Shown here in pieces: positions 1,968 through 50,663 of a DNA stretch of 64,000 bases. Numbering within the stretch: the stretch's first letter is position 1; the number at the start of each line of letters is the position of its first letter. The position numbers and the translations under genes were made by a program. Below the pieces are notes generated by a model. It did not search any database and had not been told where the DNA came from. It worked only from the letters and a program-made list of their open reading frames with translations. Origin of the DNA: Wickerhamiella versatilis (Eukaryota); contig JAQOWU010000004.1 in the NCBI GenBank assembly GCA_030867685.1, positions 1-64,000 on the forward strand, in the 5' to 3' direction.

Positions 1968-3083
1968 CTACAGCTTTCCAACTTCAGCCAACCCCCACTT
2001 GTAAACTGGAAAACGAGATCTTACATCGTCCACACTCCACACGTTCCGAGTTTCATGGACGTCTGCCCATACGGTCTCGTCATAACTGGATTCACCCTCC
2101 CCATTATATATGTCAGAGTCTCTAACGCTTCCTCCTAGTCCACGTTTATATATCCATTGAACCATTATGGGTGGCCACACAGTAAATGATTCGATATTGC
2201 CCTTTCCTATTTCTGATTGAATCATAATATCGATAGGCATGTCAGAATCAATTGCTTGTCTGACGAGCATGCGCCTAGCCCCCCTACGACTAATTGCATA
2301 ACCAGTCGTACAACCTGGGGTCCCACTCTTTCTTATTGTCCGCTTGCCAACTCCTATATCGAAAGATTCTACCAAGGAGAAGTCATAGCGGAAAGATACT
2401 GAGCCAGGGTCTTCATATACGTTGAAGATGTCTGAAAAATCGTTCCCTTCGCCGCAGGCTCCAAAGTATATCATATCCCAGGAACTACCCCAAGGATGTG
2501 ATTTTGTGGCATTCAACCCTAAAGCTCTGTCACCGCTCAGCTTATTTAGTGCCTTAGCCATCCGCTCTGATTGCTTGCGAATATCTATACCGAATGCTGC
2601 ATCCCCTTCCAGAATGAGTGCGTTTTCCCACCCTTCCTTGAGTATTAGCTTCCAAACATTAGCATGTGAGCGAGCGCATGCCCACTGTGCTCGGTGCCCA
2701 CGATCAGTAGGTAAGGTTCCATACTGATTGGACGACGGGGGGTAGCCTGTTTTTCCGTCGTCAATAGAGTCGGCAAGCACTGAGTCTTCGACATCCCACT
2801 GTAGCCCTGACAGGTCTGCCTGCAAAGCCATAGCATCAGAGAGGTCATGTCGAGAAGGCAGGTTGAGGAAAATGATTTTTTGAAATCCAAGTGTTTCGTT
2901 CCCGGCAGCTTCGAAATCGAGGGTTTCAGAAGCTAAAGAAAGCGGCAGGCCAGATGATTTGAAGGATAACCCACTGAGGTGTCTAGCTACAGCAACCCCT
3001 ATGACAACCAGGATTAGGAAAGTTGTCGTAAACTTCCACTGGCGAAAAGGAAAAGAGGCCATTGTGACGCGAAAAAGTGACAT
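1968..3083 (-). CDS. Glycosyltransferase family 25-like, type II membrane protein (paralog 1)
   Basis: Motifs NETLGFQKIIFLNLPSRHD, ACARSHANVW, LILEGDA, CTTGYAISRRGARRML; N-terminal TM segment. Start trimmed from the 3317 ORF start to ATG 3083 (MSLFRV; 3062 is an alternative) because this matches paralog length and a TATA-like element lies at ~3130. Confidence 0.8.
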   Translation of the reverse strand: MSLFRVTMASFPFRQWKFTTTFLILVVIGVAVARHLSGLSFKSSGLPLSLASETLDFEAAGNETLGFQKIIFLNLPSRHDLSDAMALQADLSGLQWDVEDSVLADSIDDGKTGYPPSSNQYGTLPTDRGHRAQWACARSHANVWKLILKEGWENALILEGDAAFGIDIRKQSERMAKALNKLSGDRALGLNATKSHPWGSSWDMIYFGACGEGNDFSDIFNVYEDPGSVSFRYDFSLVESFDIGVGKRTIRKSGTPGCTTGYAISRRGARRMLVRQAIDSDMPIDIMIQSEIGKGNIESFTVWPPIMVQWIYKRGLGGSVRDSDIYNGEGESSYDETVWADVHETRNVWSVDDVRSRFPVYKWGLAEVGKL

Positions 3084-3678
3084 AGTTATTCCTGTACCGA
3101 AACCTTCCCTGTTACGCGAAAGTGTGATTATATAAATTGAAATGAGACTGGGTCGACACAGCAAGACAGCATAGGTACGATGAGACCCGCAGGGAGCCAG
3201 GTGTGAAATTAGAGGTCTGAATAAGAAGAAATAAAACTTATTGGTTCTAGCTGACTTTACAGTATTATATCGTAATTCAAGTGCGCTTTGAAAAGATCCA
3301 ATGATGGAAAATGTCATTTATTCTCTCAACGCTACAATTACTAATACGTTCTACATATGCAGGGTCGCAGGGTAGCCCACCACTTGAGTCTCATCGGAGC
3401 GCCATCCTCCTGTAAAGACTACTTAATGTCAATTTTTTGCATGGTACATTTGATGTTTAGAAAAGATCTAGTGGTACCCTGCTCATATTTATTCTAAGGG
3501 GATGCTCATATCATATGACGAAGCCATTCTCTATCGGATCATAAGTACACGGGGTTTAGCTGGTAGCAAATACCTTTAGTATTGACCACAAATCTCGAGT
3601 ATTTGCTAGAACACCATTACATATCTCTAGCGAAAATGACATTATTTAAGTCACTCTCCAACCGAAAATGGAGGATAA

Positions 3679-4201: not shown

Positions 4202-5275
4202 ATGAAGAAAGCATCTTTTGGTAAAAGGATGGCCACTCGAGCGGTGATTCTAGTATCCTACATTTTATTGGTTATATTAGCCATTTGGCCCGATAGCAGG
4301 TATCCTAAAGTGTTGTTCAATGCTGCAGGTAATAGTTCGCGGGGCTTCGAAAAAATAATTTTTGTAAATCATCCTTATCGCAAGGATAATGCCAATATAA
4401 TGTCACTCGAAAGTCACTACTCCGGCATAGAGTACTTGACATCCAAAGAAGCAGACTACTATGAGTCTAAGTCCGACAAAAACGATCTTCCATCTGTAGA
4501 TGTAGCTTGCGCGTTATCACATATGAATGTCTGGAAACTAGTTCTGGAAAAAGGCTGGGCGTCAGTCCTCATCCTGGAGTCTGATGTAACTTGGGATGAG
4601 AACATCAAGAACATATCCAAACGAGCTGCAAAGGGTCTAGATACGCTGATAAATGAGAAGCGACTTAGACAAGGTGGAAGTCAGCCATCTCCGCAAGATC
4701 CATATAATGTAGAGCAGTGGGACTATTTCTCATGGGGGACCTGTTTCGACGAAGAGCGATTTGAGGCCAGTGCATCCGGCATTTACGTGAAATACCCTGA
4801 TGTCGACTCCCCAAATTGTGAATACGGCTGGCCAGAGGATGATGTGAACGATACGCTTGTAGACGAACGCATAATGAGGAAGGCTGGCTTTCCAATCTGT
4901 ACTAATGCCTATGCTTTGACTGCCAAAGGAGCCGAGAAGCTACTCCTTCGGAAGTCGCTGTTTTCAAATGGCTCTGTAGATTTAAAAATGGCTCAGGAAA
5001 TCGATAAAGGAAATTTAGTGGGTTATGAGATGTTTCCACCACCAATGTATCAGTGGCGCTATGTTGGTGATACCGGGGCAGATGGACTAAACCCTGACAT
5101 AGCTTCGGAAGAGAGGCAAGAAGAAAATATCAGTAATATTGAAGAGAAATGGAGCCAATCCCAAGACCCTAGCTTTTTCTGGGAAATTAACCATCGTAAC
5201 TACCCATGGCCGTATAAGCATTGGGTATTGAACAGGATAGCTGAAAATATGGTGTCAAAGAACACCTCTTCTTAA
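4202..5275 (+). CDS. Glycosyltransferase family 25-like (paralog 2)
   Basis: N-terminal TM; GFEKIIFVNHPYRKD, ACALSHMNVW, LILESDV, CTNAYALTAKGAEKLL; collinear with the other two GT25 ORFs. Confidence 0.8.
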   Translation: MKKASFGKRMATRAVILVSYILLVILAIWPDSRYPKVLFNAAGNSSRGFEKIIFVNHPYRKDNANIMSLESHYSGIEYLTSKEADYYESKSDKNDLPSVDVACALSHMNVWKLVLEKGWASVLILESDVTWDENIKNISKRAAKGLDTLINEKRLRQGGSQPSPQDPYNVEQWDYFSWGTCFDEERFEASASGIYVKYPDVDSPNCEYGWPEDDVNDTLVDERIMRKAGFPICTNAYALTAKGAEKLLLRKSLFSNGSVDLKMAQEIDKGNLVGYEMFPPPMYQWRYVGDTGADGLNPDIASEERQEENISNIEEKWSQSQDPSFFWEINHRNYPWPYKHWVLNRIAENMVSKNTSS

Positions 5276-11513: not shown

Positions 11514-13160
11514 TCATCTTACGAATCTAAAATCAAGACGTTTGTTTCCCTTATCCCTGGTTTTTTGCAGGTAATTGGCCTTTTCCTCAGGACCCATAGA
11601 GTTCCAAACTTTATCTTTCTGGTGATTCTTCCACTGATACCAGTAATTGCTGAGAAGAATTAAAGTCATGGAAAGTAAAGAAATTTCAAGCAGCCTAGTA
11701 ACACCATGTTGGAGTACTGAAGATAGATGCTCGATATCCCCCCTGAAGACGTTGGCCGCTATTATGCCCCCAGCTTGTGAAAACATATTTACTAGAGCTG
11801 TGGAAACAGTTCTCAGACCAACATCTCCAGAGTTGTGTGAACACCATGACACGCTCATAGGTGTAACACTAGGGCCACTTAGTGCAACGAAGAGTATGGT
11901 GAAACATCTCCACTTGTACAGTAGGATATCAGGTTTTAATTTTAACAAAACGAGACACGGAATAATCCAAAGCGGAGTAATCAACATGAAGACCGAGTAT
12001 CTGTTACAACGACTGGTCAACCACGCGATTAGAAGTAACGAGAATATGGCAAGAAGCTGGTTCGGAATCATGAGTAAATTTGTTTCGAAAGTTGAAAATC
12101 CTGCAGTTCTGAGGATTATTGGCTGGTAGAGGCCAATCGCTGATGAACTTACGTCGCCCAATACTCTCACAAGATAAATGGGCCACATGTCTACATTCAT
12201 CACAGAGGACCAGAGGTCTCCTAGAGAGAGTTGCTGGCGATTGTTCATCGATCCCTTGGCAGGATCATCGCGTAAAATGCGATTGACAACGATTTTTTCC
12301 TGCCTCCTACTGTACCAACCCTGCGGGCAGAGCCAAGATTTGGTCTGCGAAGGCGATGCTGTCATGAAAAAAAAAGACGCAAGACCAACGAATAGGGTAA
12401 GAGAGCCTTCTAATATGAAAATCCACTGCCATCCTGCTAAATTGCCGATATCTTCCATATGGAAAATTGCAAAGGCCATTAAGGAAGTCAGAGCTTGAAC
12501 CAAGGGATTGGCGATATAGAAGATGCCAAGTCTAAAAGCAAGCTCGGGACCAGTGTAGAAGTAGGACAACCACAAGCTTATGACTGGTATGAACCCACCT
12601 TCTAATATGCCTACGATTGCCCTCATACATAGAAAGGATGTGCGGGATCTAATCATACTCTGCAGAATTACTGCCACCGACCATAGCGTCATTTGGAGAG
12701 GAATAAAGCGGTCAGGCCCAACCCTCTTGGAAATGATGCTTGATGGCAACTCTGCTGCTAGGAAACAAAACAGATTGATAGTTGTACCGAGATTGTAGTC
12801 ATCGTTATTGATTCCTATATCGCCAAAAAAGGTTCCTGTGATAGCAGTTTTCATGTTGGTTCGATCAATGTTGAGGCAAACGAATGCGATTAATGCGAAT
12901 GTAATTGCATGGATATCTGTTTTCCGTACAACTTTTTGTTCCTCCGACAAATCCCATTCCATCTCAGGATCTAATAAATGTAGACCCTCGTATGCTACTG
13001 AACCATAAATTGCTTGCCAATACTTTGACAAGGTATCATCAATAAATACATCGGATCGATTCGACCCAGAAGAGTATCTCTGTCTCTGAAGCCGTGGATC
13101 ACCATTAGACTCATTTCTTATCAAAGAAGTTCGTTCAGATTGTCCGACATTGCGATCCAT
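11514..13160 (-). CDS. MFS anion:cation symporter, Soa1/YIL166C-like (sulfonate/sulfate transporter family)
   Basis: FLAAELPSSIISKRVGPDRFIPLQMTLWS, VNRILRDDPAKGSMNNRQ, C-terminal DKGNKRLDFRF. Start trimmed to ATG 13160 (ORF extends to 13325). Confidence 0.8.
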   Translation of the reverse strand: MDRNVGQSERTSLIRNESNGDPRLQRQRYSSGSNRSDVFIDDTLSKYWQAIYGSVAYEGLHLLDPEMEWDLSEEQKVVRKTDIHAITFALIAFVCLNIDRTNMKTAITGTFFGDIGINNDDYNLGTTINLFCFLAAELPSSIISKRVGPDRFIPLQMTLWSVAVILQSMIRSRTSFLCMRAIVGILEGGFIPVISLWLSYFYTGPELAFRLGIFYIANPLVQALTSLMAFAIFHMEDIGNLAGWQWIFILEGSLTLFVGLASFFFMTASPSQTKSWLCPQGWYSRRQEKIVVNRILRDDPAKGSMNNRQQLSLGDLWSSVMNVDMWPIYLVRVLGDVSSSAIGLYQPIILRTAGFSTFETNLLMIPNQLLAIFSLLLIAWLTSRCNRYSVFMLITPLWIIPCLVLLKLKPDILLYKWRCFTILFVALSGPSVTPMSVSWCSHNSGDVGLRTVSTALVNMFSQAGGIIAANVFRGDIEHLSSVLQHGVTRLLEISLLSMTLILLSNYWYQWKNHQKDKVWNSMGPEEKANYLQKTRDKGNKRLDFRFVR

Positions 13161-13232
13161 TCGCTCGCTGGTCAGTCTTTTCGTATTTTTCAAGTTGAGA
13201 CGTTGAGGTATTGGAGAGATAGAACGTGATAA

Positions 13233-13240
13233 CACGTGAC
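13233..13240 (-). promoter_or_regulatory. Cbf1/CDEI-type site GTCACGTG
   Basis: Perfect RTCACRTG ~75 nt upstream of ATG 13160, flanked by two ATCACG half-like sites. Confidence 0.45.
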
Positions 13241-13940
13241 TGATGCGTGATGACAGGTTATCTAGAAATAGCTGATGTAATTCGATGTCCTTTAGCTTCA
13301 CCTGTGACTTCGCAGCTTCGGTCATTGCGATAGAGTTGAAGAAATATATGTATATACCAAATAGCTGTTTTTTGTGACTGGTTGGAAGTCATCCGGCAGC
13401 TAGGAACATAAGAGGATTCTAGAATCGTAGCTACATACGCCATGGTGAAAGATGAAGCTAGGCTCATATGTGTAGTAAAATTAAAGGGGGTAGCAGCATT
13501 GATAAGGGTTTCCGTGATCTTCTTTGTTTTTACCTTAATTTCGCTGGTAGATGGTTAATGCGATGATAAAGAGCGCCTTTCTATAGTAACGCATTGCGAT
13601 GCATGAAGAACCGTGAAATATATAGCCGACGGAAGGATCGAAAGTCGATTGGGCAGCACGAACGACGGATGGGAGCATCGAAAGAGTAGATAATTGCATT
13701 TCGAGACGAATGATGACATTTCTAGCCCATATTCATACTGTATTTATGTGATTTCTGGAAAATCAAATCGACCATGGAACAGCGCTGCTATAATTTAAGC
13801 CTTTAGGTTTATATAGAGTAATATAGCTTCGAGAAGACAATTATACCATCGCCCATGTTTCATTCCATTAAGTTCTGAGATTCCGATTAGCAACGATATT
13901 ATTTTTAGATAAAGCGATTATCTTACCAACCAAGGGGCTT

Positions 13941-14000: not shown

Positions 14001-14855
14001 TGGGCTATAGAGATCCAACAATTACACTTCCAATCGACATTCCACCTACAAATTCTAGTTCCGGTGCCTTGATACCGTGATTTTGTACACAGAATCTCAC
14101 CGGGGTCTCTCGCCCCACCCCTCCTCGGCTGTACCTGTAATTTTAAGACAGCTTAGATAATTTTGAGACATTAGTTTCTATTGCAGCAGCTGATATGGCA
14201 AAATTGCATCTGCTTTGCATCCAATGATAGCAGGATCTAGGATGGCAATCAAGTTGTAAGGTGTCTCAATTTGATTGTGGATTGGTTTGACATTGCAAGG
14301 TTTCCAGGGGTACGGTGGGCGGGCTAGCCCAACCCTCGGTACCAGCTGAATAATAGTATGAGACTTTTTGGGGGTGTTGGAAACATACAAGATAGCTTAT
14401 ACAGGAATGAACCAATTTTACAGGCTATAAAATTCTAATATCAGTGCAGAGAAACCTACAGAAGCCCTATAAGAGGCGAACCATCATAGATTAGTATATG
14501 AAAATTGCTAATTTTGATTATATAACAATATATAGGCCGCTGCTAAACATGACAAATGGTGAAAGTGCAATCCGCGCGAATCCAACCATAGAGATGGGAA
14601 GTTGTTGATGAAATGTCATACAAACATTGCGAATTATCCCTCTGGAAGGATGTGAAATGTCTCTGTGGTATTTGGGATCATTCTACATAGTATGGTGCCA
14701 TATGGTCATGCGAAGATCAGTGCGACATGCATGAGATCGGAATATCATATTCCGAGTTATTGCTCGTTTACAGTCGTGAATAATCATATAAATTAGTGCT
14801 TATTCTTTTCTTGTAAGTTATATATTTAACGAAACCTCAACACGAAATCCAAACA

Positions 14856-17800
14856 ATGAAAGTATACGAGTCAATTCAAGCTCTTCCACCTATCCCTAGC
14901 TGCTTGAATTCCATAGTTGGACTATTATCAACTACACCATTTGTGCTCAAATATAACAAGTTGGCCTTCATAGATGGAGTAAGCGGTCAAGGAATCACAT
15001 TCGGCCAGCATAAAAGCCTTATTCCCAGGATAGCTGCCGTATTACATGAAAAATTCGAGATCAGCCAAGGGGATGTGGTGATGCTTGTTGCCAGAAACAA
15101 CATCTTAACACCAGCCATACATCATGCGACGATGTGGCTGGGTGCTGTTATGGCCCCTGTGCATGCTCAGTACAAGTCGGCAGAGCTTGTCCACCATATA
15201 AAGTTGTCAAAGCCTAAGATTCTATTGACTGATGATGTTTCTACTTCCATTGAAGCATGCAAGCTTGCGGAACATAACATAGAGGTTGTCGAATACTCCG
15301 ACTTGGTGCCACGGCTCCTTAACCTGATTGATAACGATGATGCTAAACAAATTGATCCCGTTCCTGTAGGTCTTGATGCCACTGGTGTTCTGTGTTTCTC
15401 ATCAGGCACATCAGGGCTGCCGAAGGCCGTTGAGCTGACTCACTATAACCTGCTTCAACATGCATTTCAAATTAGCCAAATTGGGGCTCCTTACACGGGA
15501 AATGATGATCTCGTCGTAGGTGCGTTTTTACCACTAAGCCATGCTTATGGACTGTATATTTACCAATGGGGTTCAGTTGTACAGGGCAGGACTGTTGTCC
15601 TGTTTAACCGATTTGATTTAGAGGAGATATTGCAAGGATGCTTACATTATGGGGTCGCTATTATTTATACAGTCCCATCTATTCTACTCGTACTTGGTAA
15701 GGATCCCTTAGTCGACCTATATCCGAAGTTCAAGGAACAACTCAAATATGTCATATCATCGGCTGGCAGTTTGTCTAGGTCTAGCGGAGAGGTATTGACT
15801 AAACGAATACCTGGTGTAAATATTATTCAGGCATATGGACTTTCTGAGACGCTTCTTACGTTTACAGGAGTTGATCGTGATGAGTATGACATAGACACTG
15901 TCGGGTGGCTAATCCCGGGCACGCAAGCGCGCCTAGTTAGCCCTGAAACTGGCGATGACGTGCCCTTGGGTGCGTCTGGCGAAATTTGGTTACGCGGACC
16001 ACAAATCATGAAAGGATATCTAGACAACCCAAAAGCCACCGCTGAAACGAAAACCTCGGAAGGGTGGCTGAAAACTGGGGATGTAGCCGTGACTGATGAG
16101 ACTGGCCAATTAAAAATTGTTGGTCGCATAAAAGAGCTTATCAAGTCAAAAGGCTATCAGATTGCCCCGGCAGAACTAGAAGGTATCCTTGTCACCCATC
16201 CTAACGTAATTGATGCGGCTGTTATCGGGGTTCCAGATTCCACAAAGACTACCGAACTTCCTCGAGCATTCTTGGTTCTCCGGGATAAAGCTGATATCTT
16301 TCCCATTATCCAGTGGTTCAACAAAAAAGTGTCACCTCAGAAACGCCTTTCAGGAGGTGGCGTCATCGTGGAAAAGATACCTGTGGGTGCAACAGGTAAG
16401 ATCTTGCGCAATGTCCTTCGAGAGCTCCAGGTCAAACCAGAAGATGTTCAAGGTAGCAACATAGTCGACTTACAGAATATTAACGTTGGCTACTTGAAGA
16501 ATCAGGCACGAGGTTCATCTGTGTTGCAATCAGTCATCGACACCGCTATAACTCTCCTAGGTAACCCAGAGAACGCCAGACCAGACTCGAGTTTTAGTGC
16601 CCTAGGTGGGGATTCACTGATAGCCTTGCAATATGTGAATATATTGCGTGAAATATTCAATATTTCAGTACCTGTGGCATTGGTCACCAGTCCGACCACG
16701 GACCTTCAATCAATTGCAGAACACATCGAACTACATATTGGGGGGTCCAGTACACGGCCGACGTACGAAGATATTCATGTTAATGGCGATAAAGAGGTGC
16801 TGGCTTCAGAATTAACACTAGACAGGTTTATGAGTAGTGCCACACTGGCAAACGCTTCCTCCTTACCACCGGCCAATCCGGAACAACCCCGGGTCATTCT
16901 GTTAACGGGGGCAACTGGCTTCCTTGGAGGCCAACTTGCCTTGGAATTATTAGAGGAGATGGTGAAAGTAGATGGGAAAGTGATCTGCTTGGTCCGCGCA
17001 AAAAGCGAGGCTGAAGCGCGAACTCGATTATACCGCTCTTTTGATAAGGGTAACCATGATTTACTGCAATACTTTAACAGGCTAGCCGATGACCATCTTG
17101 AGGTGCTAGCCGGCGATAAATCTGAGGAGAATCTAGGTCTGGACGAATCCACGTGGCAGAGACTCTCGCATGATGTCGACCAGATTGTTGATTCGGCAGC
17201 ACTCGTCAACCACGTTCTTCCATACTATGAACTTTTCGGTCCCAATGTAGTTGGTACCGCAGAATTGATCCGATTAGCTATTACATCGAAACTCAAGCCA
17301 TTTACCTACGTTTCCACCATTGCTGTCGGCCAAGGAGTGTCACCTAGCGATTTTATCGAGGACAGCGATGTGCGACAAATGAGTTCGTTGCGGAAGATTG
17401 ATAGCAGTTATGCAAATGGCTATGGAACCAGTAAGTGGGCAGGTGAAGTATTGCTTAGAGAAGCTCATGACCTATGTGGGCTTCCTGTTTCGGTCTTTCG
17501 ATCTGGAATGATATTAGCAGGTACAAAGTACTTAGGCCAGATCAATGAAAATGACATGTTCACCAGGATGCTTATGAGCCTGGTCGTGACCGGGATAGCC
17601 CCATACTCCTTTTATGAGCTAGATGCTGGCGGTAGGCGCCAACGGGCTCACTATGCTGGACTACCGGTTGATTTTGTCGCAAAATCAATCACTAAATTGG
17701 GCTCCTCAAGGGAAGGTTTTGCTACATACCATGTGATGAACTGTCACGATGATGGTATCGGGATGGATGAATATGTTGACTGGTTGACTTCTTCAGGTTA

Positions 17801-18077
17801 CCATATCAAGCGGATTCCAGAGTACTCAGAGTGGTTGCAGCAATTCGAAACCAGCTTAAGAAGCCTTCCAGCCAAGCTGCAAGCTGCATCATTACTGCCC
17901 TTGTTACACAATTATCAAAAGCCAGAAGCACCACAATGTGGGTCCACTTATAACAGTGAAGTATTCCGTGAAGCAGTTAAGAAGGCTGAGATTGGGCCAA
18001 CCAAAGACATCCCCACCATTGATCAGTCATTAATCGCCAAATATATAGTGGAGTTGCAACATCTTAACTTGATATAG
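14856..18077 (+). CDS. NRPS-like A-T-R carboxylic acid reductase; 4CL/luciferase-like A domain fused to actinobacterial CAR-like T and R domains
   Basis: A: FSSGTSGLPKAV, QAYGLSE, WLKTGD, GRIKELIKSKGYQIAPAELE, GKILR. T: LGGDSL (Ser codon 16614). R: LLTGATGFLG, AALVNHVLPY, YANGYGTSKWAGEVLLREAHDLCGLPVSVFR. Confidence 0.9.
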   Translation: MKVYESIQALPPIPSCLNSIVGLLSTTPFVLKYNKLAFIDGVSGQGITFGQHKSLIPRIAAVLHEKFEISQGDVVMLVARNNILTPAIHHATMWLGAVMAPVHAQYKSAELVHHIKLSKPKILLTDDVSTSIEACKLAEHNIEVVEYSDLVPRLLNLIDNDDAKQIDPVPVGLDATGVLCFSSGTSGLPKAVELTHYNLLQHAFQISQIGAPYTGNDDLVVGAFLPLSHAYGLYIYQWGSVVQGRTVVLFNRFDLEEILQGCLHYGVAIIYTVPSILLVLGKDPLVDLYPKFKEQLKYVISSAGSLSRSSGEVLTKRIPGVNIIQAYGLSETLLTFTGVDRDEYDIDTVGWLIPGTQARLVSPETGDDVPLGASGEIWLRGPQIMKGYLDNPKATAETKTSEGWLKTGDVAVTDETGQLKIVGRIKELIKSKGYQIAPAELEGILVTHPNVIDAAVIGVPDSTKTTELPRAFLVLRDKADIFPIIQWFNKKVSPQKRLSGGGVIVEKIPVGATGKILRNVLRELQVKPEDVQGSNIVDLQNINVGYLKNQARGSSVLQSVIDTAITLLGNPENARPDSSFSALGGDSLIALQYVNILREIFNISVPVALVTSPTTDLQSIAEHIELHIGGSSTRPTYEDIHVNGDKEVLASELTLDRFMSSATLANASSLPPANPEQPRVILLTGATGFLGGQLALELLEEMVKVDGKVICLVRAKSEAEARTRLYRSFDKGNHDLLQYFNRLADDHLEVLAGDKSEENLGLDESTWQRLSHDVDQIVDSAALVNHVLPYYELFGPNVVGTAELIRLAITSKLKPFTYVSTIAVGQGVSPSDFIEDSDVRQMSSLRKIDSSYANGYGTSKWAGEVLLREAHDLCGLPVSVFRSGMILAGTKYLGQINENDMFTRMLMSLVVTGIAPYSFYELDAGGRRQRAHYAGLPVDFVAKSITKLGSSREGFATYHVMNCHDDGIGMDEYVDWLTSSGYHIKRIPEYSEWLQQFETSLRSLPAKLQAASLLPLLHNYQKPEAPQCGSTYNSEVFREAVKKAEIGPTKDIPTIDQSLIAKYIVELQHLNLI

Positions 18078-18116
18078 GAGACGCATTTTAAGAATAGTCG
18101 TATATATTAGCCGAAG

Positions 18117-18146
18117 CTGATTGGACAATGCAAAAGAGCCGCTTCA
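18117..18146 (-). repeat. 41-bp dispersed repeat fragment
   Basis: CTGATTGGACAATGCAAAAGAGCCGCTTCA; a second piece TGCAAGATCGCTCAC lies at 18191-18205. Confidence 0.75.
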
Positions 18147-18396
18147 AAGCTACTTTTGGTTCCAAGAGCTTATACTAGAGATATAGCTACTGCAAGATCG
18201 CTCACAATCCAATTGCCCACCTACATTTCAAATCACTGGAATTTGGCAAGGTTCTCAGGGAAAGACACCTTTTCATCATAAGGTGATAAATGTGGCTGAA
18301 AGTACTGCAATTAGAATTGGAAGTTAATATATTCTAAATCCCGCATGAGGCTTTGGTCAATTTATGGTTTTTGCTCTATTAATGACCGAAACGAGG

Positions 18397-18894
18397 CTAT
18401 TTTTTCTTTTCATCACGAGAATTGCGTGGGGCTGGCCATATCACACCAACACTTCTCATGCCTTTGATCATGTCCATGTTTGGGTGCTCGGCCACTACAT
18501 CCCTGTACGAAGGGCTGCCTATCACTGACGACTTAAATTTGTCCATTGTGGCATTTACTTGCTCTTGTAACTCCTTTGGTAGACCGAATTCCTCATATGT
18601 TGCATATAAACAATCCATCATGCCATCCCAGTGCTCCTGGGTCAGCCCCATTCCACGGTGTGCTGTCAACATGCTACGTCCTTTATAAATGATCGGTCCA
18701 CCCCATTCACGGGCAAGAAAATCACTGAAATTCTTATGCTCCTCAAGGAACCGATCCTCACCCATGTGGGCCCATATGTGTTTAATCGATGGATGTACAA
18801 ATGCTTTCTTGAACGCGGCTGATGAGAAAGCGGATATATTGTCGTAGCCACCTAGCTTTTGGTATAACGAGGCCTCACCTGTTTCCACAGACAT
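18397..18894 (-). CDS. Group I truncated (2/2) haemoglobin-like protein with C-terminal extension
   Basis: SLYQKLGGYDNI, WGGPIIYKGRSMLTAHRGMGLT (proximal His). First ATG is 18894; the ORF-track start is a GTG. Confidence 0.8.
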   Translation of the reverse strand: MSVETGEASLYQKLGGYDNISAFSSAAFKKAFVHPSIKHIWAHMGEDRFLEEHKNFSDFLAREWGGPIIYKGRSMLTAHRGMGLTQEHWDGMMDCLYATYEEFGLPKELQEQVNATMDKFKSSVIGSPSYRDVVAEHPNMDMIKGMRSVGVIWPAPRNSRDEKKK

Positions 18895-19229
18895 TTCCGG
18901 CAAGCAAGACACAACAATTCAGAAACCTAAAGTAAAGGTTGCTATCAGCTTATTATTAAGTATAATGATTTATATAACGTGAATCATTGGACTATTAGGA
19001 TTTGTCAGAAAGCTAGTTCTATATACCAACGTCTTTGCAAGTTAGAGTTGCCGTAGGTAAGATGGTAAATTAAACAACCGGTATTTTCTTTCCGATTTTC
19101 AGAGAACTGTGTAATCGAAAAAACTCTTGGACAGTCGCTGATCGAAAGGGTTAAACTAACTTGAAACAAAGATAAGGATGCAGCTGACATAATACAATAT
19201 CTATACCCTCCTGCAAAGACAACCGTAGA

Positions 19230-20204
19230 ATGGTACATTTCAACTACAAAGCAGCAGTTGTACAGGCGGCACCGGAATTCTTGGACCTTGATGCCTCTGT
19301 AAGTAAAGTCATCAGGCTCATTAATGAAGCTGCGTCGGCTGGAGCAAAGCTAATTGTGTTTCCTGAATGCTATATTCCGGGTTATCCATGGTGGATCTGG
19401 GTGATGACTCCCGCTGCTGCTATTGAAAAGGGGTTCGTGAGTCGTTACTACGATAATTCCCTTACTTCTGATAGTCTTCACTCCAAGAAGCTACAGGCAG
19501 CCATTGCGGAAGCGGGGATTACCGTAGTGCTTGGGCTGACAGAACGTATTGGTAACTCATTGTATATCGCGCAATGGACGATTAGTTCAGAAGGAACAAT
19601 CGTCAAGCGTCGACGTAAACTGAAAGCGACACATTGTGAACGCTTTGTATTTGGTGAGGGCGACGGCAGTGATATTTCTGTAAAGGAACTACCTGGCATC
19701 GGGAAATTGGGGGCTTTGAGTTGCTGGGAACATATACAGCCCCTAGTGAAATATGCAATGTATTCTCAAGAAGAACAAGTACATGCCGCGGCCTGGCCGA
19801 GCTTTTCGGTTTATACCAATCTTACATCGTCGCTCAGTACAGATGTCAATACTGCAGTGGCTAGAACGTATGCAATTGAAGGCGGGTGCTTCGTGCTTTC
19901 CTCCTGTGCCACAGTTTCTGACAAAATGATCGACGAGCTTTGTGGGGATGATCCTGAAAAGCTGAGGCTTCTTCAAGCAGGAGGAGGGGCTGCGAGAATC
20001 TATGGCCCAGATGGTACCGAACTCGCCGAGCCGTTAGCACCCAACGATGAAGGGATTTTGTACGCAGAGGTTAATAGCCGGTTCATTGATATCGCTAAGA
20101 GTACTGCTGACCCTATAGGCCACTATTCGCGCCCCGATGTCCTCCGATTAATGTTCAATCCTGAGAAACAGGAAAGAGTTGAGGATTTCACAGAAGAGCC
20201 TTAA
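19230..20204 (+). CDS. Nitrilase (carbon-nitrogen hydrolase, branch 1)
   Basis: Catalytic triad motifs VFPECYIPGYP, RRKLKATHCER, LSCWEH; C-terminal DPIGHYSRPDVL. Confidence 0.92.
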   Translation: MVHFNYKAAVVQAAPEFLDLDASVSKVIRLINEAASAGAKLIVFPECYIPGYPWWIWVMTPAAAIEKGFVSRYYDNSLTSDSLHSKKLQAAIAEAGITVVLGLTERIGNSLYIAQWTISSEGTIVKRRRKLKATHCERFVFGEGDGSDISVKELPGIGKLGALSCWEHIQPLVKYAMYSQEEQVHAAAWPSFSVYTNLTSSLSTDVNTAVARTYAIEGGCFVLSSCATVSDKMIDELCGDDPEKLRLLQAGGGAARIYGPDGTELAEPLAPNDEGILYAEVNSRFIDIAKSTADPIGHYSRPDVLRLMFNPEKQERVEDFTEEP

Positions 20205-34850: not shown

Positions 34851-35951
34851 ATGCCAAGATATGTCCTTCGCACATTGGTCTTAACCTGGGCTATAGCTCT
34901 CACATTGCTAGCATTACTCGCTGGAAATTCATTTTATCAAAATAAAGATTATGAGGGCTACAAGGGCCTTGGAATGCCCACCAGGCCGAGAAGTGCATCT
35001 AGCCAATTTGCATCAACCACAAATGACACAATGGGATTTTCTGAGATAGCCTTTATCCGGTTACCTCATAGATATGATCAAGAAGATGTAATGACTTTTC
35101 AGGGCATATTAGCAAAGCTTAAGTATAAGTCCTATGATGCTGTTGACAGTCAAGATGTCGAAAAAGACTATCGCGGTCTACCCCCGGCCAGGTCTCAAGA
35201 TCTAAGTTCATCGGAGCTGGCATGTATTAGATCACATGCTAATGTATGGCAAAAAATGCTACAAAATAATTATTTATCAGTTCTCGTCCTAGAAGGTGAT
35301 GCGACTTTCGATGTCGATATACGCGATCAAACGTTCCGACTGGCAAGGGCCTTTCAAGATCTTCTGTCCTCCCTGAATTTGATAGTAAATAATACGGATG
35401 AGGATCCTTGGAATTGCGAAAGCTGGGATATCTTGAATTTTGGGGCTTGTTTCGAAGGCGGGGAATTTTCGAATCTCTATAGGACATATGATGATCCTGG
35501 CACTCCATCTATATTATATGACTATCCAGAGACCAATACCGCCTTTGAGACTAAAGAAGGAGAAAGGATAGTTCGGCGGAGTGGGCGACCAATATGCACG
35601 ACAGGCTATGGGATTAGCCGTCGCGGCGCACTCAAGATGCTCCTAAGGATGTCACTGGAAAGTTCACGGGCTTTAGATCTCGTAATGGCCCAGGAAAACC
35701 TCAAAGGCACTGTTGAGTCTTACACAGTATGGCCCCCATTAATACATCAATGGGAATATAAGGATGGAGTCAATACTCAGAGCTCTGACATTCATAATGT
35801 TGACAAGAATGAAGATTATGATCCAAATATATGGAAAGATGTATTTCTGCAAGCGAATGTCTGGCAAGTGAGAAAAGAATATCAACAGTGGCACATGAAC
35901 AACTGGACACTAGCTCAAATAGGACGAGAATCGGGATTAGCATTCGTCTGA
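34851..35951 (+). CDS. Glycosyltransferase family 25-like (paralog 3)
   Basis: N-terminal TM; NDTMGFSEIAFIRLPHRYD, ACIRSHANVW, LVLEGDA, CTTGYGISRRGALKML. Confidence 0.82.
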   Translation: MPRYVLRTLVLTWAIALTLLALLAGNSFYQNKDYEGYKGLGMPTRPRSASSQFASTTNDTMGFSEIAFIRLPHRYDQEDVMTFQGILAKLKYKSYDAVDSQDVEKDYRGLPPARSQDLSSSELACIRSHANVWQKMLQNNYLSVLVLEGDATFDVDIRDQTFRLARAFQDLLSSLNLIVNNTDEDPWNCESWDILNFGACFEGGEFSNLYRTYDDPGTPSILYDYPETNTAFETKEGERIVRRSGRPICTTGYGISRRGALKMLLRMSLESSRALDLVMAQENLKGTVESYTVWPPLIHQWEYKDGVNTQSSDIHNVDKNEDYDPNIWKDVFLQANVWQVRKEYQQWHMNNWTLAQIGRESGLAFV

Positions 35952-36303: not shown

Positions 36304-39300
36304 CTAGTGGAGCAGAACTATCGCAAGAGCTATAGCCGTGAACATACCCTTAACCGGTTCCAGTGAATGTCCAGAATTTGCTACCTCAGGAACTGAATTC
36401 GAGGGCTGGGCAACACTAGGAGCATTATTCGATTCAATGGCTTGTGAAGCCGATGCGGGTCCACTAGATGATGAGGCCGCTGAGCCTGAAGGCTGAGCAA
36501 CACTAGGAACATTATTTGATTCAATGGCTTGTGAAGCCGATGCGGGTCCACTAGATGATGAGGCCGCTGAGCCTGAAGGCTGAGCAACACTAGGAACATT
36601 ATTCGATTCAATGGCTTGTGAAGCCAAAGCTGGTCCAATGGTTAATGTTGGGACCGCTGAGCCAGAAGGCTGATTGCTTAGAGCTTCGGCTACACTACCA
36701 GTCTGAGTACAGTCGCAATCCTCTAGGGTGAGGGTGGTAGCTTGCGTAACCGTGTACGTTGTACCGCCATATGCAAACGTAGTAGGACTGGGACAAGGGA
36801 TAGTGGTATACTTGGTACTCTCAGCTGTTACAGTAGTGCCTTCAAATACATTAGGGGTCTCTACAGTGACCTCGGGAACGGTGTAAGTCCTACCACCACT
36901 GGTGATCACCTCATTGGTGCTGATAGTAGTAGGAGCCGTACCAGTGTAGCCAATGGTAGTGGTCACACCCGGAATACCATTGGTGGGGGTCTCGACGGTG
37001 ACATCTGGAACAGGGTAGATCTTGCTACCGCTAGTCATCACCTCATTTGTGCTGATGGTGGTGGGCGCTGTGCCAGTGTAGCCAATGTTGGTGGTCTCGC
37101 CTGGGAAGTTCCCAAGAGGGGTATATGTCATGGATAACGATACATTTTCACTGCGTGAGATGCTGCTACTTCTGATAACTGGTGGGACATTCTGACTAGA
37201 CTTCATAGTCGGAGTCTCGACGGTGACATCTGGAACGGTGTAGATCTTGCTACCGCTAGTGATCACCTCATTTGTGCTGATAGTGGTGGGCACAGACCCA
37301 GTGTAGCCAATGGTGGTAGTCTTACCCGGAATACCATTGGTGGGGGTCTCGACGGTGACATCTGGAACAGTGTAGATTTTACTACCACTATTGATCCCCT
37401 CATTTGTACTGATAGTGGTGGGCACAGAACCAGTGTAGCCAATGGTGGTAGTCTTACCCGGAATACCATTGGTGGGGGTCTCGACGGTGACATCTGGAAC
37501 AGTGTAGATCTTGCTACCGCTAGTGATCACCTCATTTGTGCTGATAGTAGTGGGAGTGGTGCCAGTGTAGCCAATGGAGGTAGTCTCACCTGGAATACCA
37601 TTGGTAGGGGTTTCGACAGTGACATCTGGAACAGTGTAGATCTTGCTACCGCTAGTAACCACCTCATTTGTGCTGATAGTAGTAGGAGTGGTGCCAGTGT
37701 AGCCAATGGAGGTAGTCTCACCTGGAATGCTATTGGTGGGGGTCTCGACGGTGACATCTGGAACAGTGTAGATCTTGCTACCGCTAGTGTTCACCTCATT
37801 TGTGCTGAGAGTAGTAGGATAACTACCTGTCCATGCAACCGTAGTGGTCTCACCTGGAATACCATTGGTAGGGGTCTCGACGGTGACATCTGGAACAGTG
37901 TAGATCTTGCTACCGCTAGTGATCACCTCATTTGTGCTGATAGTGGTGGGCACAGAACCAGTGTAGCCAATGGTGGTAGTCTTACCCGGAATACCATTGG
38001 TGGGGGTCTCGACGGTGACATCTGGAACAGTGTAGATCTTGCTACCGCTAGTGATCACCTCATTTGTGCTGAGAGTAGTAGGATAACTACCTGTCCATGC
38101 AACCGTAGTGGTCTCACCTGGAATACCATTGGTAGGGGTCTCGACGGTGACATCTGGAACAGTGTAGATCTTGCTACCGCTAGTGATCACCTCATTTGTG
38201 CTGATAGTAGTGGGAGTGGTGCCAGTGTAGCCAATGGAGGTAGTCTCACCGGGAATACCATTGGTAGGGGTTTCGACAGTGACATCTGGAACAGTGTAGA
38301 TCTTGCTACCGCTAGTGATCACTTCATTTGTGCTGATAGTGGTGGGCACAGACCCAGTGTAGCCAATGGTGGTAGTCTTACCCGGAATACCATTGGTGGG
38401 GGTCTCGACGGTGACATCTGGAACAGTGAAGATCTTGCTACCGCTAGTGATCACGTCATTTGTGCTGAGAGTAGTAGGATAACTACCTGTCCATACAACC
38501 GTAGTGGTCTCACCTGGAATACCATTGGTGGGGGTCTCGACGGTGACATCTGGAACAGTGTAGATCTTGCTACCGCTAGTGATCACCTCATTTGTGCTGA
38601 TAGTGGTGGGCACAGAACCAGTGTAGCCAATGGTGGTAGTCTTACCCGGAATACCATTGGTGGGGGTCTCGACGGTGACATCTGGAACAGTGAAGATCTT
38701 GCTACCGCTAGTGATCACGTCATTTGTGCTGAGAGTAGTAGGATAACTACCTGTCCATACAACCGTAGTGGTCTCACCTGGAATACCATTGGTAGGGGTC
38801 TCGACGGTGACATCTGGAACAGTGTAGATCTTGCTACCGCTAGTGATCACCTCATTTGTGCTGATAGTGGTGGGCACAGAACCAGTGTAGCCAACGGTGG
38901 TAGTCTTACCCGGAACACCATTGGTGGGGGTCTCGACGGTGACATCTGGAACAGTGTAGATCTTGCTACCGCTAGTGATCACTTCATTTGTGCTGATAGT
39001 AGTAGGATAACTACCTGTCCATGCAACCGTAGTGGTCTCACCCGGAACACTATTGGTGGGGGTCTCGACGGTGACATCTGGAACAGTGTAGATCTTGCTA
39101 CCGCTAGTGATCACGTCATTTGTGCTGAGAGTAGTAGGATAACTACCTGTCCATGCAACCGTAGTGGTCTCACCTGGAATACCATTGGTAGGGGTTTCGA
39201 TGGTGACATCTGGAACAGTGTAGATCTTGCTACCGCTAGTAACCACCTCATTTGTGCTGATAGTAGTGGGAGTGGTGCCAGTGTAGCCAATGGAGGTAGT

Positions 39301-45658: not shown

Positions 45659-45761
45659 CGAAATATGTTTGTTTGTTTGTTCTTGCTTCTTGCGGTGGTA
45701 TATAGGTATAAGCGAATTAATTACTAACAACTAACTTCTGATACTTATAACATTTATATGG

Positions 45762-49561: not shown

Positions 49562-49617
49562 CTGACATATTATTACACTTTAGCTCCTATGTTCTTTTTT
49601 TTCGATTCTTTGTGTAT

Positions 49618-49975: not shown

Positions 49976-50110
49976 TTTTAGCTGTAAGTTCATCAATCTT
50001 GAAAATACTATGCCACAAAGTACATTTTAATTGGTATCTAATGCATCCTAGCTTAGGCAACCTGATTCTAGCATCAAATTAACCGATGATGGCGATGCCG
50101 GCAAGGCTGG

Positions 50111-50130
50111 CTGGCTGGACAATGCAAGAT
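50111..50130 (-). repeat. 41-bp repeat fragment
   Basis: CTGGCTGGACAATGCAAGAT. Confidence 0.85.
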
Positions 50131-50630: not shown

Positions 50631-50663
50631 CCTGTGACTGGCTGGACAATGCAAGATAGCCCA
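50631..50663 (-). repeat. 41-bp repeat fragment
   Basis: CCTGTGACTGGCTGGACAATGCAAGATAGCCCA. Confidence 0.93.

What the first reader, a model, noticed from the sequence alone, without database searches (positions are those of the whole stretch)
14856..18077. Chimeric carboxylic acid reductase: eukaryotic 4CL/luciferase-like A domain joined to an actinobacterial CAR T-R didomain
Seen: aa ~1-525 carry 4-coumarate-CoA-ligase/luciferase-type signatures (ELIKSKGYQIAPAELEGIL..HP.V.DAAVIG, GKILR), the point where such ligases normally end. From ~16500 the sequence closely follows Mycobacterium/Nocardia CARs as I recall them (LGGDSL, SELTLDRF, DHLEVLAGDK, AALVNHVLPY..LFGPNVVGTAELIRLA, RQRAHYAGLPVDFVA, YHVMN.HDDGIG.DEYVDWL), not fungal Lys2-type R domains. 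Inference: a horizontally acquired T-R module fused to a host acyl-activating enzyme, a natural domain-swapped CAR with possibly new substrate scope.
Basis: partly seen in the sequence, partly recalled or inferred. Interest (0 to 1): 0.82.

Follow-up and report, generated by a model that had tools for sequence, protein, structure and literature searches.

The report
Yeast-bacterial hybrid carboxylic acid reductase
A budding yeast carries an intact gene that joins its own acid-activating ligase to the carrier and reductase half of a carboxylic acid reductase acquired from Mycobacterium/Nocardia-like bacteria, a natural version of the domain swap that enzyme engineers try to build.

Summary
ORF 14856-18077 (+, 1073 aa) is an uninterrupted A-T-R gene in a Dipodascales-type budding-yeast genome. 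Residues 1-533 belong to a clade of budding-yeast 4CL-like ligases that mostly end in PTS1-like tripeptides (41-47% identity). They are only about 22% identical to CAR A domains. Residues ~556-1073 are 58-65% identical to Mycobacteriales carboxylic acid reductases. Separate trees place the two halves in different kingdoms, and an AU test rejects a bacterial origin of the A domain (p 9e-53). Four unnamed relatives (52-87% identity) share the architecture and form one clade in the T-R tree, so a single old fusion fits the data. GC3 of the T-R half matches the host (0.45-0.46, against a bacterial median of 0.88). Contigs from three other runs bridge the junction. All catalytic motifs are intact. 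All five fusions carry Gly in place of the bacterial "on/off" Asp (NiCAR D984), and the fusion removed the ligase's C-terminal PTS1. Similar A-swapped T-R proteins exist in bacteria (Nostoc, mycobacterial FadD9 variants), but they are not the source. Activity, substrate and expression are untested. I rate it a new variant of a known kind, interest 0.65.

The parts
14856..18077 (+). Whole fused A-T-R gene (1073 codons plus TAG), no intron needed
   Evidence: ORF list. Start and length are conserved in P0001, which is 87% identical over 100% of the length. Coordinates checked.
14856..16454 (+). Host-derived 4CL-like adenylation (ligase) part, aa 1-533. Motifs: A3 SSGTSGLPK (aa 182), A5 AYGLSE (326), A7 TGDV (407), A8 GRIKELIKSKGYQ (423), A10 GKILR with K515 (nt 16398-16400).
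   Evidence: Pfam PF00501 and PF13193. 41-47% identical to stand-alone yeast-clade ligases and about 22% to CAR A domains. A-domain trees and AU tests. Motifs.
16455..16520 (+). Fusion junction / inter-domain linker, aa 534-555. The origin of these residues cannot be assigned. This is where the stand-alone ligases end with their PTS1-like tripeptide.
   Evidence: Junction alignment, sliding identity, 17-29% identity between the deeper fusion lineages here. Contigs of X1, X2 and X5 bridge it.
16521..16775 (+). CAR-derived carrier (T/PCP) domain, aa 556-640. The phosphopantetheine-attachment Ser587 lies in GGDSL (nt 16614-16616).
   Evidence: Pfam PF00550 at aa 560-624. 42-45% identical to bacterial CAR T domains. 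GGDSL is conserved in all five fusions.
16896..18071 (+). CAR-derived thioester reductase (R) domain, aa 681-1072. Features: NADPH motif TGATGFLG (aa 684), T821, Y856 and K860 in YANGYGTSKW.
   Evidence: TIGR01746 scores 309 bits against a cutoff of 213, and NF041592 model positions 601-1160 match. About 65% identical to Mycobacterium/Nocardia CARs. T821 aligns with SrCAR T935. T-R trees.
17505..17507 (+). Codon of Gly884, at the position of the bacterial CAR 'on/off' Asp (NiCAR D984, SrCAR D998)
   Evidence: Residue-by-residue alignment to 5msc, 5mso and 5msp. Gly in 5 of 5 fusions, Asp in 116 of 116 other proteins P0005-P0120 and in 94 of 96 bacterial loci. The role of this Asp is as described in PMC5826065.

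Best explanation
Origin (about 0.9): the gene is a natural inter-kingdom chimera. An ancestor of a small group of Dipodascales-type budding yeasts acquired the linker-T-R part of a type I carboxylic acid reductase from a Mycobacteriales actinobacterium, either alone or as a whole CAR whose A domain was later lost. That part became joined in frame to the 3' end of a resident 4CL-like acyl-activating ligase, replacing only the ligase's last residues, which in most stand-alone relatives form a PTS1-like tripeptide. Both halves have been inherited together since then in at least five lineages. Mechanism (about 0.6, inferred): the ligase-type A domain adenylates a carboxylic acid with ATP (A3 and A10 K515 are intact). 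In its thioester-forming conformation it passes the acyl group to the phosphopantetheine arm on Ser587 of the fused carrier domain instead of to free CoA. The arm delivers the thioester to the SDR-type R domain (TGATGFLG, T821, Y856, K860), which uses NADPH to release the aldehyde. Priming would come from a host Sfp-type PPTase; from recall, budding yeasts have Lys5 to prime Lys2. Two further inferences follow. Because the fusions lack a C-terminal PTS1, the enzyme probably acts in the cytosol and not in the peroxisome. Because the on/off Asp is Gly in all fusions, as reported for fungal CARs, the R domain may be less strictly limited to two-electron reduction and may also form alcohol. The substrate is unknown; from the ligase family, aryl, aryl-aliphatic or medium-to-long-chain fatty acids are the most plausible.
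For: The domains and scores are discordant between the halves. The A domain sits in a 31-row fungal clade (SH-aLRT 99) with Lipomyces, Magnusiomyces and unnamed stand-alone ligases, while bacterial 4CL-likes form a separate clade (95) and CAR A domains lie across a branch of 1.88. The AU test rejects fusions plus bacteria as one clade (dlnL 173, p 8.7e-53). In three Mycobacteriales genomes the best A-domain match is 33-35% identical. In the T-R trees the five fusions are one clade (99, 98/100) inside the core Nocardia/Mycobacterium CARs (99 quick, 93/94 careful). Of 599 pattern matches in bacterial genomes, 593 encode relatives. The best 80 are all Actinomycetota: 61 carry the genus names Mycobacterium, Mycolicibacterium, Mycolicibacter or Nocardia, 18 are titled only 'uncultured Actinomycetota bacterium', and 1 'Mycobacteriales bacterium'. 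The host is a yeast: GLEYA adhesin, mitochondrial carrier and Say1 are in the window, and Pic2 is closest to Starmerella at 57-60%. GC3 is 0.417 (A), 0.445 (T) and 0.457 (R), against 0.357-0.499 in 19 neighbouring genes and 0.80-0.98 (median 0.883) in 97 bacterial T-R loci. The junction is bridged by contigs of X1, X2 and X5. Catalytic motifs are conserved in all five fusions. The A10-Lys to GGDS spacing is 69 residues, against 70 in four CARs. Among 26 stand-alone relatives, 15 have strict and 22 have relaxed PTS1-like ends, whereas the fusions end in NLI, ELL or GLI. Gly884 is covered. A fungal CAR that has Gly at this position reduces aldehydes to alcohols (PMC10168641, passages).
Against: There is no biochemical, RNA or protein evidence. 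No listed run that holds the sequence is on record as RNA. The whole protein fails the curated CAR cutoff (856.9 against 1300). The A domain lacks the Glu of the CAR L/F-S/A-x-G-E-K/F motif, which is essential in NcCAR (PMC5826065); here the sequence is KSKGYQ. This is normal for 4CL-type ligases, but it means coupling to a carrier domain is unproven. A CoA-ligase-type A domain might still prefer free CoA. In the A tree the stand-alone P0121 groups with fusions P0003/P0004 (99, 89), so the fusion label needs two changes there. A single origin is not rejected (p-AU 0.109), but it is not shown either. That P0001-P0004 come from yeasts is inferred, since they are unnamed. Placement within the core CARs is a polytomy, so no donor genus can be named. 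No remnant of a CAR-type A domain was found in the window, so whether the transfer was T-R only or a whole CAR cannot be decided.
Confidence: 0.72

Rival explanations
1. Whole-gene transfer: a bacterium already had a 4CL-type A domain fused to T-R, and the complete gene moved into yeast, so no fusion happened in the yeast.
For: Such architectures exist in bacteria. P0327 (1025 aa; its cluster of 32 members includes Nostoc, Scytonema and Rhizonema) has an A domain 39% identical to ours plus PP-binding and NAD_binding_4. P0006 and P0005 are mycobacterial FadD9-like proteins with non-CAR A domains and CAR-like T-R that is 50-54% identical. The atlas's nearest clusters are bacterial A-R proteins.
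Against: The Nostoc T-R is only 30% identical to ours, against 58-63% for CARs, and serves as the outgroup. Its A domain sits in the bacterial clade, away from the fusions. The P0005/P0006 A domains are 29-30% identical and fall outside all 4CL-like rows, and their T-R falls outside the core CAR clade that holds the fusions. The AU test rejects fusions plus bacterial ligases as one clade (p 8.7e-53).
Confidence: 0.03
2. The fusion is real, but the protein does not work as a free-acid carboxylic acid reductase. Options: (a) it still releases acyl-CoA and the T-R half is idle or acts on acyl-CoA; (b) it is a dedicated NRPS-like reductase in a specialised pathway; (c) it is mainly a four-electron acid-to-alcohol reductase.
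For: The A domain has all the features of CoA ligases and lacks the CAR-specific Glu. The on/off Asp is Gly in all five fusions, and a fungal CAR with Gly there over-reduces aldehydes (PMC10168641). Neighbouring genes (an ACS-type MFS transporter, a nitrilase, a bacterial-like globin) could point to a dedicated pathway.
Against: The T-domain Ser motif and the R-domain catalytic residues are conserved across lineages that are only 47-62% identical. That is not expected for an idle half. The A10-to-Ser spacing equals that of CARs, which fits a working A-to-T hand-over. Option (c) is a variant of the best explanation, not a contradiction of it.
Confidence: 0.2
3. More than one fusion or exchange event: the A domain of the P0003/P0004 lineage was replaced or gene-converted from a stand-alone paralogue (P0121-like), or P0121 arose by secondary loss of the T-R half.
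For: P0121 (551 aa, ends in AKL) groups with P0003/P0004 to the exclusion of Q/P0001/P0002 in the A trees (99, 89).
Against: The T-R tree gives one fusion clade whose internal topology matches the A tree apart from P0121. Monophyly of the five fusion A domains is not rejected (p-AU 0.109).
Confidence: 0.12
4. Artefact: a chimeric assembly or bacterial contamination joined a yeast ligase gene to a bacterial CAR fragment.
For: None beyond the discordant similarity of the two halves.
Against: The reading frame is continuous with yeast genes on both sides. GC3 of the T-R half is 0.45-0.46, against at least 0.80 in bacteria. Contigs from X1 (16400-16680, one with 0 differences and one with 18), X2 (16338-16695) and X5 (16338-17758, 82 differences) cross the junction. 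Four diverged relatives have the same architecture.
Confidence: 0.01

Closest known systems
Bacterial type I carboxylic acid reductases (Nocardia iowensis, Mycobacterium marinum and Segniliparus rugosus CARs; PDB 5msc, 5mso, 5msp; NCBIfam NF041592)
   Same: A-T-R order. The linker, T and R parts are homologous at 58-65% identity. The GGDSL Ser, TGxTGFLG, the triad Thr (T821 = SrCAR T935) and Y/K are present. A10-Lys to Ser spacing is 69 against 70 residues.
   Different: The A domain is of another ANL subfamily, about 22% identical and about 85-100 residues shorter, with no CAR GE(F) motif. It has Gly instead of the on/off Asp. The host is eukaryotic and the gene has host codon composition. 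It scores below the family's curated cutoff.
Stand-alone fungal 4CL-like ligases, mostly with PTS1-like ends (unnamed P0121, P0241, P0122; Magnusiomyces paraingens SAPINGB_P000820 = P0142; Lipomyces oligophaga P0143)
   Same: The A domain is a member of this clade, 37-47% identical and collinear to within a few residues of their C-terminus, with all ANL core motifs.
   Different: Those proteins are 536-572 aa and stop there, and 22 of 26 end in PTS1-like tripeptides. The fusion continues into T-R and has no such ending.
Cyanobacterial 4CL-type A-T-R 'thioester reductase domain-containing proteins' (Nostoc, Scytonema, Rhizonema; P0327 cluster)
   Same: The same domain order with a 4CL-type rather than CAR-type A domain, which is 39% identical to ours.
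   Different: Its T-R is unrelated at family level to CAR T-R (30% identical, outgroup), and its A domain falls in the bacterial clade. This is an independent, analogous combination.
Mycobacterial FadD9-like variants with alternative A domains (P0006, 1032 aa; P0005, 1612 aa, A-A-T-R)
   Same: CAR-like T-R (50-54% identical) behind a non-CAR A domain. This shows that the A/T boundary of CARs is a natural swap point.
   Different: Their A domains are 29-30% identical and not 4CL-like. Their T-R lies outside the core CAR clade that holds the yeast fusions. They keep the on/off Asp.
Fungal CARs of types II-IV (e.g. Neurospora crassa NcCAR) and Lys2 alpha-aminoadipate reductase
   Same: A-T-R enzymes of fungi. 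They have Gly at the on/off position (PMC5826065). They need a PPTase.
   Different: Fungal CARs are reported to be about 20% identical to bacterial CARs, with Ser in the triad and no A10 Lys (PMC5826065). Here the triad has Thr821, A10 has Lys515, and identity to bacterial CARs is 58-65%. TIGR03443 (Lys2) scores 200.6 against a cutoff of 1030. No fungal CAR sequence was fetched for a direct comparison.

Membership tests
Bacterial type I CAR (NCBIfam NF041592, EC 1.2.1.30) | Whole-protein score at or above the curated cutoff (1300 bits) over the full 1160-position model | tested here: not met
   856.9 bits. The best stretch covers only model positions 601-1160, matching aa 515-1073.
Bacterial type I CAR (NCBIfam NF041592, EC 1.2.1.30) | CAR-type A domain: a long A domain with the bacterial-specific stretch and the L/F-S/A-x-G-E-K/F motif with its essential Glu (PMC5826065) | tested here: not met
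   The A domain is about 22% identical to CAR A domains. The aligned motif reads KSKGYQ, with no Glu. A10 Lys is at residue 515, against about 603-615 in CARs.
Bacterial type I CAR (NCBIfam NF041592, EC 1.2.1.30) | Carrier domain with the phosphopantetheine-attachment Ser | tested here: met
   GGDSL at aa 584, Ser587. Conserved in all five fusions.
Bacterial type I CAR (NCBIfam NF041592, EC 1.2.1.30) | R domain with TGxxGxxG, GYxxxKxxxE and a triad Thr (Thr in bacterial CARs, Ser in fungal CARs; PMC5826065) | tested here: met
   TGATGFLG at 684, and GYGTSKWAGE with Y856 and K860. T821 aligns with SrCAR T935.
Bacterial type I CAR (NCBIfam NF041592, EC 1.2.1.30) | Conserved 'on/off' Asp of the reductase active site (NiCAR D984) | tested here: not met
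   Gly884 aligns with D984 and D998. Gly in 5 of 5 fusions, Asp in 116 of 116 other hits and in 94 of 96 bacterial loci.
Bacterial type I CAR (NCBIfam NF041592, EC 1.2.1.30) | T-R half placed phylogenetically among type I CARs | tested here: met
   The fusion clade lies inside the core Nocardia/Mycobacterium CAR clade (99, 93/94).
Bacterial type I CAR (NCBIfam NF041592, EC 1.2.1.30) | ATP-, NADPH- and PPTase-dependent reduction of free acids to aldehydes | not testable with these tools
   Needs enzyme assays.
ANL 4CL-like acyl-CoA ligases (fungal clade with PTS1-like ends) | PF00501 plus PF13193 with core motifs A3, A5, A7, A8 and the A10 Lys | tested here: met
ANL 4CL-like acyl-CoA ligases (fungal clade with PTS1-like ends) | Placement inside the fungal / budding-yeast clade of the family | tested here: met
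   A 31-row clade with SH-aLRT 99. The bacterial alternative is rejected (p 8.7e-53).
ANL 4CL-like acyl-CoA ligases (fungal clade with PTS1-like ends) | Stand-alone protein of about 540-570 aa ending in a PTS1-like tripeptide | tested here: not met
   1073 aa, ending in NLI. The stand-alone relatives end in AKL, SKL, SRL and similar in 22 of 26 cases.
ANL 4CL-like acyl-CoA ligases (fungal clade with PTS1-like ends) | Forms a CoA thioester as its product | not testable with these tools
   Needs assays with and without CoA.
Fungal CARs of types II-IV / Lys2 (TIGR03443) | Score at or above the TIGR03443 cutoff, or fungal signature residues (triad Ser, hydroxylic residue at A10; PMC5826065) | tested here: not met
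   TIGR03443 scores 200.6 against 1030. The protein has Thr821 and Lys515. Only the Gly at the on/off site matches the fungal state.
Fungal CARs of types II-IV / Lys2 (TIGR03443) | Direct sequence or tree comparison with characterised fungal CARs | not tested

The most novel reading that the evidence does not exclude
The fused enzyme is a working natural 'plug-and-play' CAR. A CoA-ligase-type A domain from a eukaryote loads a bacterial carrier domain, without the CAR-specific A-domain features. The clade-wide Asp-to-Gly change makes it a direct acid-to-alcohol (four-electron) reductase. Losing the PTS1 moved the chemistry from the peroxisome to the cytosol. Together with the adjacent nitrilase and anion-type MFS transporter, it forms a yeast route from aryl or alkyl nitriles and acids to alcohols.
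Probability: 0.2. Interest if true: 0.82.

Novelty: new variant of a known kind. Interest (0 to 1): 0.65.

Why it matters
CARs are widely used biocatalysts for making aldehydes, and their A domain acts as the substrate gate-keeper. If this natural chimera is active, maintained as it is in at least five diverged lineages, it would show that an ordinary CoA-ligase-type A domain can be coupled to a CAR carrier-reductase pair at the A10/linker boundary. That would give engineers a tested splice point (aa 534-555) and access to the very large 4CL/acyl-CoA-ligase substrate space. The fixed Asp-to-Gly change at the reductase on/off residue is a natural experiment on control of over-reduction. For yeast evolution, it is a case where a horizontally acquired bacterial module was not used as a whole gene but fused in frame to a native gene. 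If the PTS1 inference holds, that fusion also retargeted the native enzyme.

Tried and rejected
Tools and searches that gave nothing:
- No whole genome is held for this window. I could not check the host for a PPTase, a stand-alone paralogue or a full-length CAR.
- The first related-loci scan, with the single protein, found no relative. The retry with alignment A1 worked.
- No tRNA or Rfam family lies in the window.

Expression:
- No RNA holder is listed. X5 is only guessed to be RNA, and its contigs also cover flanking DNA, so it says nothing about transcription.
- The two 'joints' (16153 to 16313, and 16153 to 17643) have short sides of 20-36 letters at 85% likeness. I did not take them as real deletions.

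Phylogenetic tests:
- The AU test on the 66-row A matrix never finished. I ran it on a 27-row subset under LG+G4 instead.

Literature:
- Searches found no report of a budding-yeast or chimeric 4CL-CAR. One search returned 1 paper, an ADH review. One search listed only 15 of its 243 papers, and none of those 15 mentions CAR.
- One search was a badly chosen query and is uninformative.
- Gahloth et al. 2017 is not held. Its claim about the Asp is cited only as relayed by PMC5826065.
- Supplementary HGT gene lists of yeast-genome papers could not be seen and may already list this gene.

Other:
- A scan for remnants of a CAR-type A domain in the window found only the gene's own A domain (21-33% identical) and chance-level hits with E above 0.1.
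- The atlas search gave only generic A-(T)-R clusters.
- I did not run structure or complex prediction, because the sequence-level evidence was decisive for the questions asked.


Full report
**1. Observation.** The window holds one uninterrupted ORF at 14856..18077 on the + strand (1073 aa). Pfam finds AMP-binding (aa 34-389), AMP-binding_C (440-515), PP-binding (560-624) and NAD_binding_4 (683-945), which is an A-T-R protein.

**2. Host and context.** The window is not bacterial. It carries a GLEYA/PA14 adhesin, a mitochondrial carrier, a Say1/Mug180 hydrolase, DUF7082 and several MFS transporters, as intron-free ORFs about 3 kb apart. Its Pic2-type carrier is closest to Starmerella bombicola (60%), S. 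bacillaris (57%), Magnusiomyces (58%) and Blastobotrys (55%). That indicates a Dipodascales-type budding yeast near the Wickerhamiella/Starmerella group. From recall, and from the abstracts listed (eLife 2018, PMC5897096; bioRxiv 399394), this group is known for bacterial gene acquisitions. No whole genome is held for the window.

**3. The two halves resemble different things.**
- Against solved structures, aa 36-527 match a Drosophila luciferase-like fatty-acyl-CoA synthetase, luciferases and plant 4CLs (E 6e-73 to 2e-66). Residues 374-1072 match CARs at E 2e-201 (5mso), 6e-187 (5msc) and 5e-174 (5msp).
- The curated bacterial CAR model NF041592 scores 856.9 bits, but only over model positions 601-1160 (aa 515-1073), which is below its 1300-bit cutoff. 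The Lys2 model TIGR03443 scores 200.6 against a cutoff of 1030.
- By BLASTP on parts, the R domain (641-1073) is about 65% identical to Mycobacterium/Nocardia CARs and the T region 42-45%. The A domain (1-530) is only 21-24% identical to the A domains of the same proteins.
- In 40-aa windows, identity to stand-alone ligases is 25-75% up to about aa 520, and those proteins then end. Identity to CARs is 8-32% before that point and 38-82% from about aa 560 on.

**4. Junction.** In a local alignment the fusions follow the stand-alone ligases through ...GKILRNVLRELQVKPEDVQG (aa 533). The ligases stop 6-8 residues later. From ...VLQSVIDTAITLLG (aa 556) the fusions follow the CAR T domain. Residues 534-555 (nt 16455-16520) cannot be assigned to either parent, and they are the least conserved part among the fusions (17-29% between the deeper lineages). 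The distance from the A10 Lys to the GGDS motif is 69 residues, against 70 in four CARs. So the splice preserved the geometry of the native A-T linker.

**5. Relatives with the same architecture.** Among 3535 significant hits (8000 candidates scored, best 120 listed), four unnamed proteins share the length and domain set: P0001 (87%), P0002 (55%), P0003 (52%) and P0004 (53%). Below them come P0005, P0006 and then actinobacterial CARs. Members of these clusters sit on contigs of up to 1.35 Mb. Between lineages the A part is 47-54% identical, the T part 43-54% and the R part 56-62%.

**6. Origin of the A domain.**
- The closest stand-alone proteins are 536-572 aa and 37-47% identical. Most are unnamed, and the named ones are Magnusiomyces paraingens and Lipomyces oligophaga, followed by chytrids and Mucoromycota. 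An exhaustive search without length limits agrees.
- In a 66-row tree rooted on CAR A domains, the fusions lie in a 31-row clade (SH-aLRT 99) with Lipomyces, Magnusiomyces and unnamed ligases. That clade sits inside other fungal ligases.
- Seven bacterial 4CL-likes, the Nostoc A-T-R protein and a red-algal sequence form a separate clade (95). P0005 and P0006 lie further out.
- On a 27-row subset, forcing the fusions together with the three bacterial rows costs 173 lnL units (p-AU 8.7e-53).
- In three Mycobacteriales genomes the best match to the yeast A domain is 33-35% identical.
- One wrinkle: the stand-alone P0121 groups with P0003/P0004 (99, 89). Monophyly of the five fusion A domains is not rejected (p-AU 0.109).

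**7. Origin of the T-R half.**
- A scan of one genome per prokaryote species found 593 relatives among 599 pattern matches. The best 80 (57-63% identity) are all Actinomycetota: 61 carry the genus names Mycobacterium, Mycolicibacterium, Mycolicibacter or Nocardia, 18 are titled only 'uncultured Actinomycetota bacterium', and 1 'Mycobacteriales bacterium'.
- In an even sample of the phylum, 10 of 401 genomes had a match at E <= 1e-40, graded from 61% down to 34% identity. These stretches were fetched for rooting.
- In the 48-row tree the five fusions form one clade (99) with topology ((P0003,P0004),(P0002,(window,P0001))). That clade lies inside a 38-row clade (99) of core Nocardia/Mycobacterium CARs. 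Divergent CAR paralogues and P0005/P0006 lie outside.
- A careful 32-row tree gives 98/100 for the fusion clade and 93/94 for its union with the core CARs.
- Within that core the position is a polytomy, so no donor genus can be named.

**8. The bacterial 'pre-fused' rival.** Bacteria do have 4CL-type A-T-R proteins. The P0327 cluster (32 members; Nostoc, Scytonema, Rhizonema) has an A domain 39% identical to ours. Its T-R, however, is only 30% identical, and its A domain is in the bacterial clade. P0005 and P0006 (mycobacterial FadD9-like) have CAR-like T-R but unrelated A domains. These show that the A/T boundary is a recurrent natural swap point. They are not the source of the yeast gene.

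**9. Reality and age.** Contigs of other runs cross the junction: X1 (16400-16680, one with 0 differences and one with 18), X2 (16338-16695) and X5 (16338-17758, 82 differences). GC3 is 0.417 (A), 0.445 (T) and 0.457 (R), within the 0.357-0.499 range of 19 neighbouring genes. In 97 bacterial T-R loci it is 0.80-0.98, with a median of 0.883. Full amelioration and 52-55% identity between fusion lineages both indicate an old event followed by vertical descent.

**10. How it probably works (inferred).**
- All core motifs are present and conserved, with conservative variants, in the five fusions: A3 SSGTSGLPK, A5, A7 TGDV, A8, A10 GKILR (K515), GGDSL (S587), TGATGFLG, T821, and Y856/K860.
- The expected cycle is adenylation, transfer to the tethered phosphopantetheine instead of CoA, and NADPH-dependent release of the aldehyde.
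- Two clade-specific features stand out. First, 15 of 26 stand-alone relatives end in a strict PTS1 tripeptide and 22 of 26 in a relaxed one (consensus recalled), whereas the fusions end in NLI, ELL or GLI. The fusion should therefore have removed peroxisomal targeting.
- Second, Gly884 aligns with NiCAR D984 and SrCAR D998. All 5 fusions have Gly, against Asp in 116 of 116 other proteins P0005-P0120 and in 94 of 96 bacterial loci (L093 has Thr, L095 has Gly). These two sets overlap and are not independent.
- PMC5826065 (passages read) describes this Asp, citing Gahloth et al. 2017, as an on/off switch of the reductase that is Gly in fungal CARs. PMC10168641 (passages read) shows that NcCAR reduces aldehydes further to alcohols. 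The yeast fusions may therefore be less strictly two-electron reductases.
- The A domain lacks the Glu of the CAR GE(K/F) motif, which is essential in NcCAR (PMC5826065). Here the sequence is KSKGYQ, as is usual for 4CL-type ligases.

**11. Comparison and novelty.** The protein works like a CAR, but by the curated cutoff and by its A-domain features it is not a member of type I. It is not a fungal type II-IV CAR or Lys2 either. It is best described as a new, chimeric CAR variant. Literature searches found no description of it. Unseen supplementary HGT lists of yeast-genome papers may contain it.

**12. Limits.**
- There is no expression or activity evidence.
- The donor genus is unresolved.
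- T-R-only transfer and whole-CAR transfer cannot be told apart; no CAR A-domain remnant is in the window.

Noticed in passing
window 53543-53713 (+): A relic of about 57 codons from a 4CL-like ligase (the A7-A8 region), with two in-frame stop codons. It is 50% identical to aa 400-451 of the fusion's A domain and 41-52% to stand-alone ligases. It lies in the gap between the MFS gene (51331-53007) and Pic2 (54097-55143). No similarity is detectable on either side, so it looks like a decayed ligase paralogue.
   Followed up: partly
window 11514-13325 (-), 18397-18912 (-), 19230-20204 (+): The immediate neighbours of the fusion gene are an anion-type MFS transporter, a bacterial-like globin and a nitrilase. 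The transporter gives weak hits to the D-galactonate transporter and 4-hydroxyphenylacetate permease models. The globin matches PF01152 and no NCBIfam model. The nitrilase matches CN_hydrolase, and TIGR04048 scores 222 against a cutoff of 503. Nitrile to acid to aldehyde would be a coherent route, but conservation of this neighbourhood could not be checked.
   Followed up: partly
window 1968-3317 (-), 4202-5275 (+), 34851-35951 (+): Three ORFs carry Glyco_transf_25, a family named for bacterial LPS biosynthesis, in a yeast window. Their origin was not examined.
   Followed up: no
window 55768-57462 (-): A D-galactarate/altronate dehydratase-type protein (GD_AH_C, GD_AH_second, SAF). TIGR03248 scores 351 against a cutoff of 731. 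It sits next to Pic2 and may be another bacterial-type gene. Not examined further.
   Followed up: no
window 36304-40515 (-): A 1403-aa PA14/GLEYA adhesin-like ORF in the only stretch of raised GC (0.49) and strong positive GC skew in the window.
   Followed up: no
window 14600-18300, runs X1 and X2: Both runs hold two versions of the gene. One set of contigs is identical to the window, and a second set differs at roughly 6-11% of positions (for example 63 of 591, 18 of 281 and 19 of 229). These are two strains, species or haplotypes in the same samples.
   Followed up: no
window 16455-16775 (aa 534-640): The linker and carrier domain evolve faster than the reductase. T is 42-45% identical to bacterial CARs against about 65% for R, and 43-54% against 56-62% among fusion lineages. 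This would fit adaptation to a new A-domain partner and a new PPTase.
   Followed up: partly
window 45659-51330: A stretch of about 5.7 kb has no ORF of 200 aa or more on either strand. Not examined.
   Followed up: no
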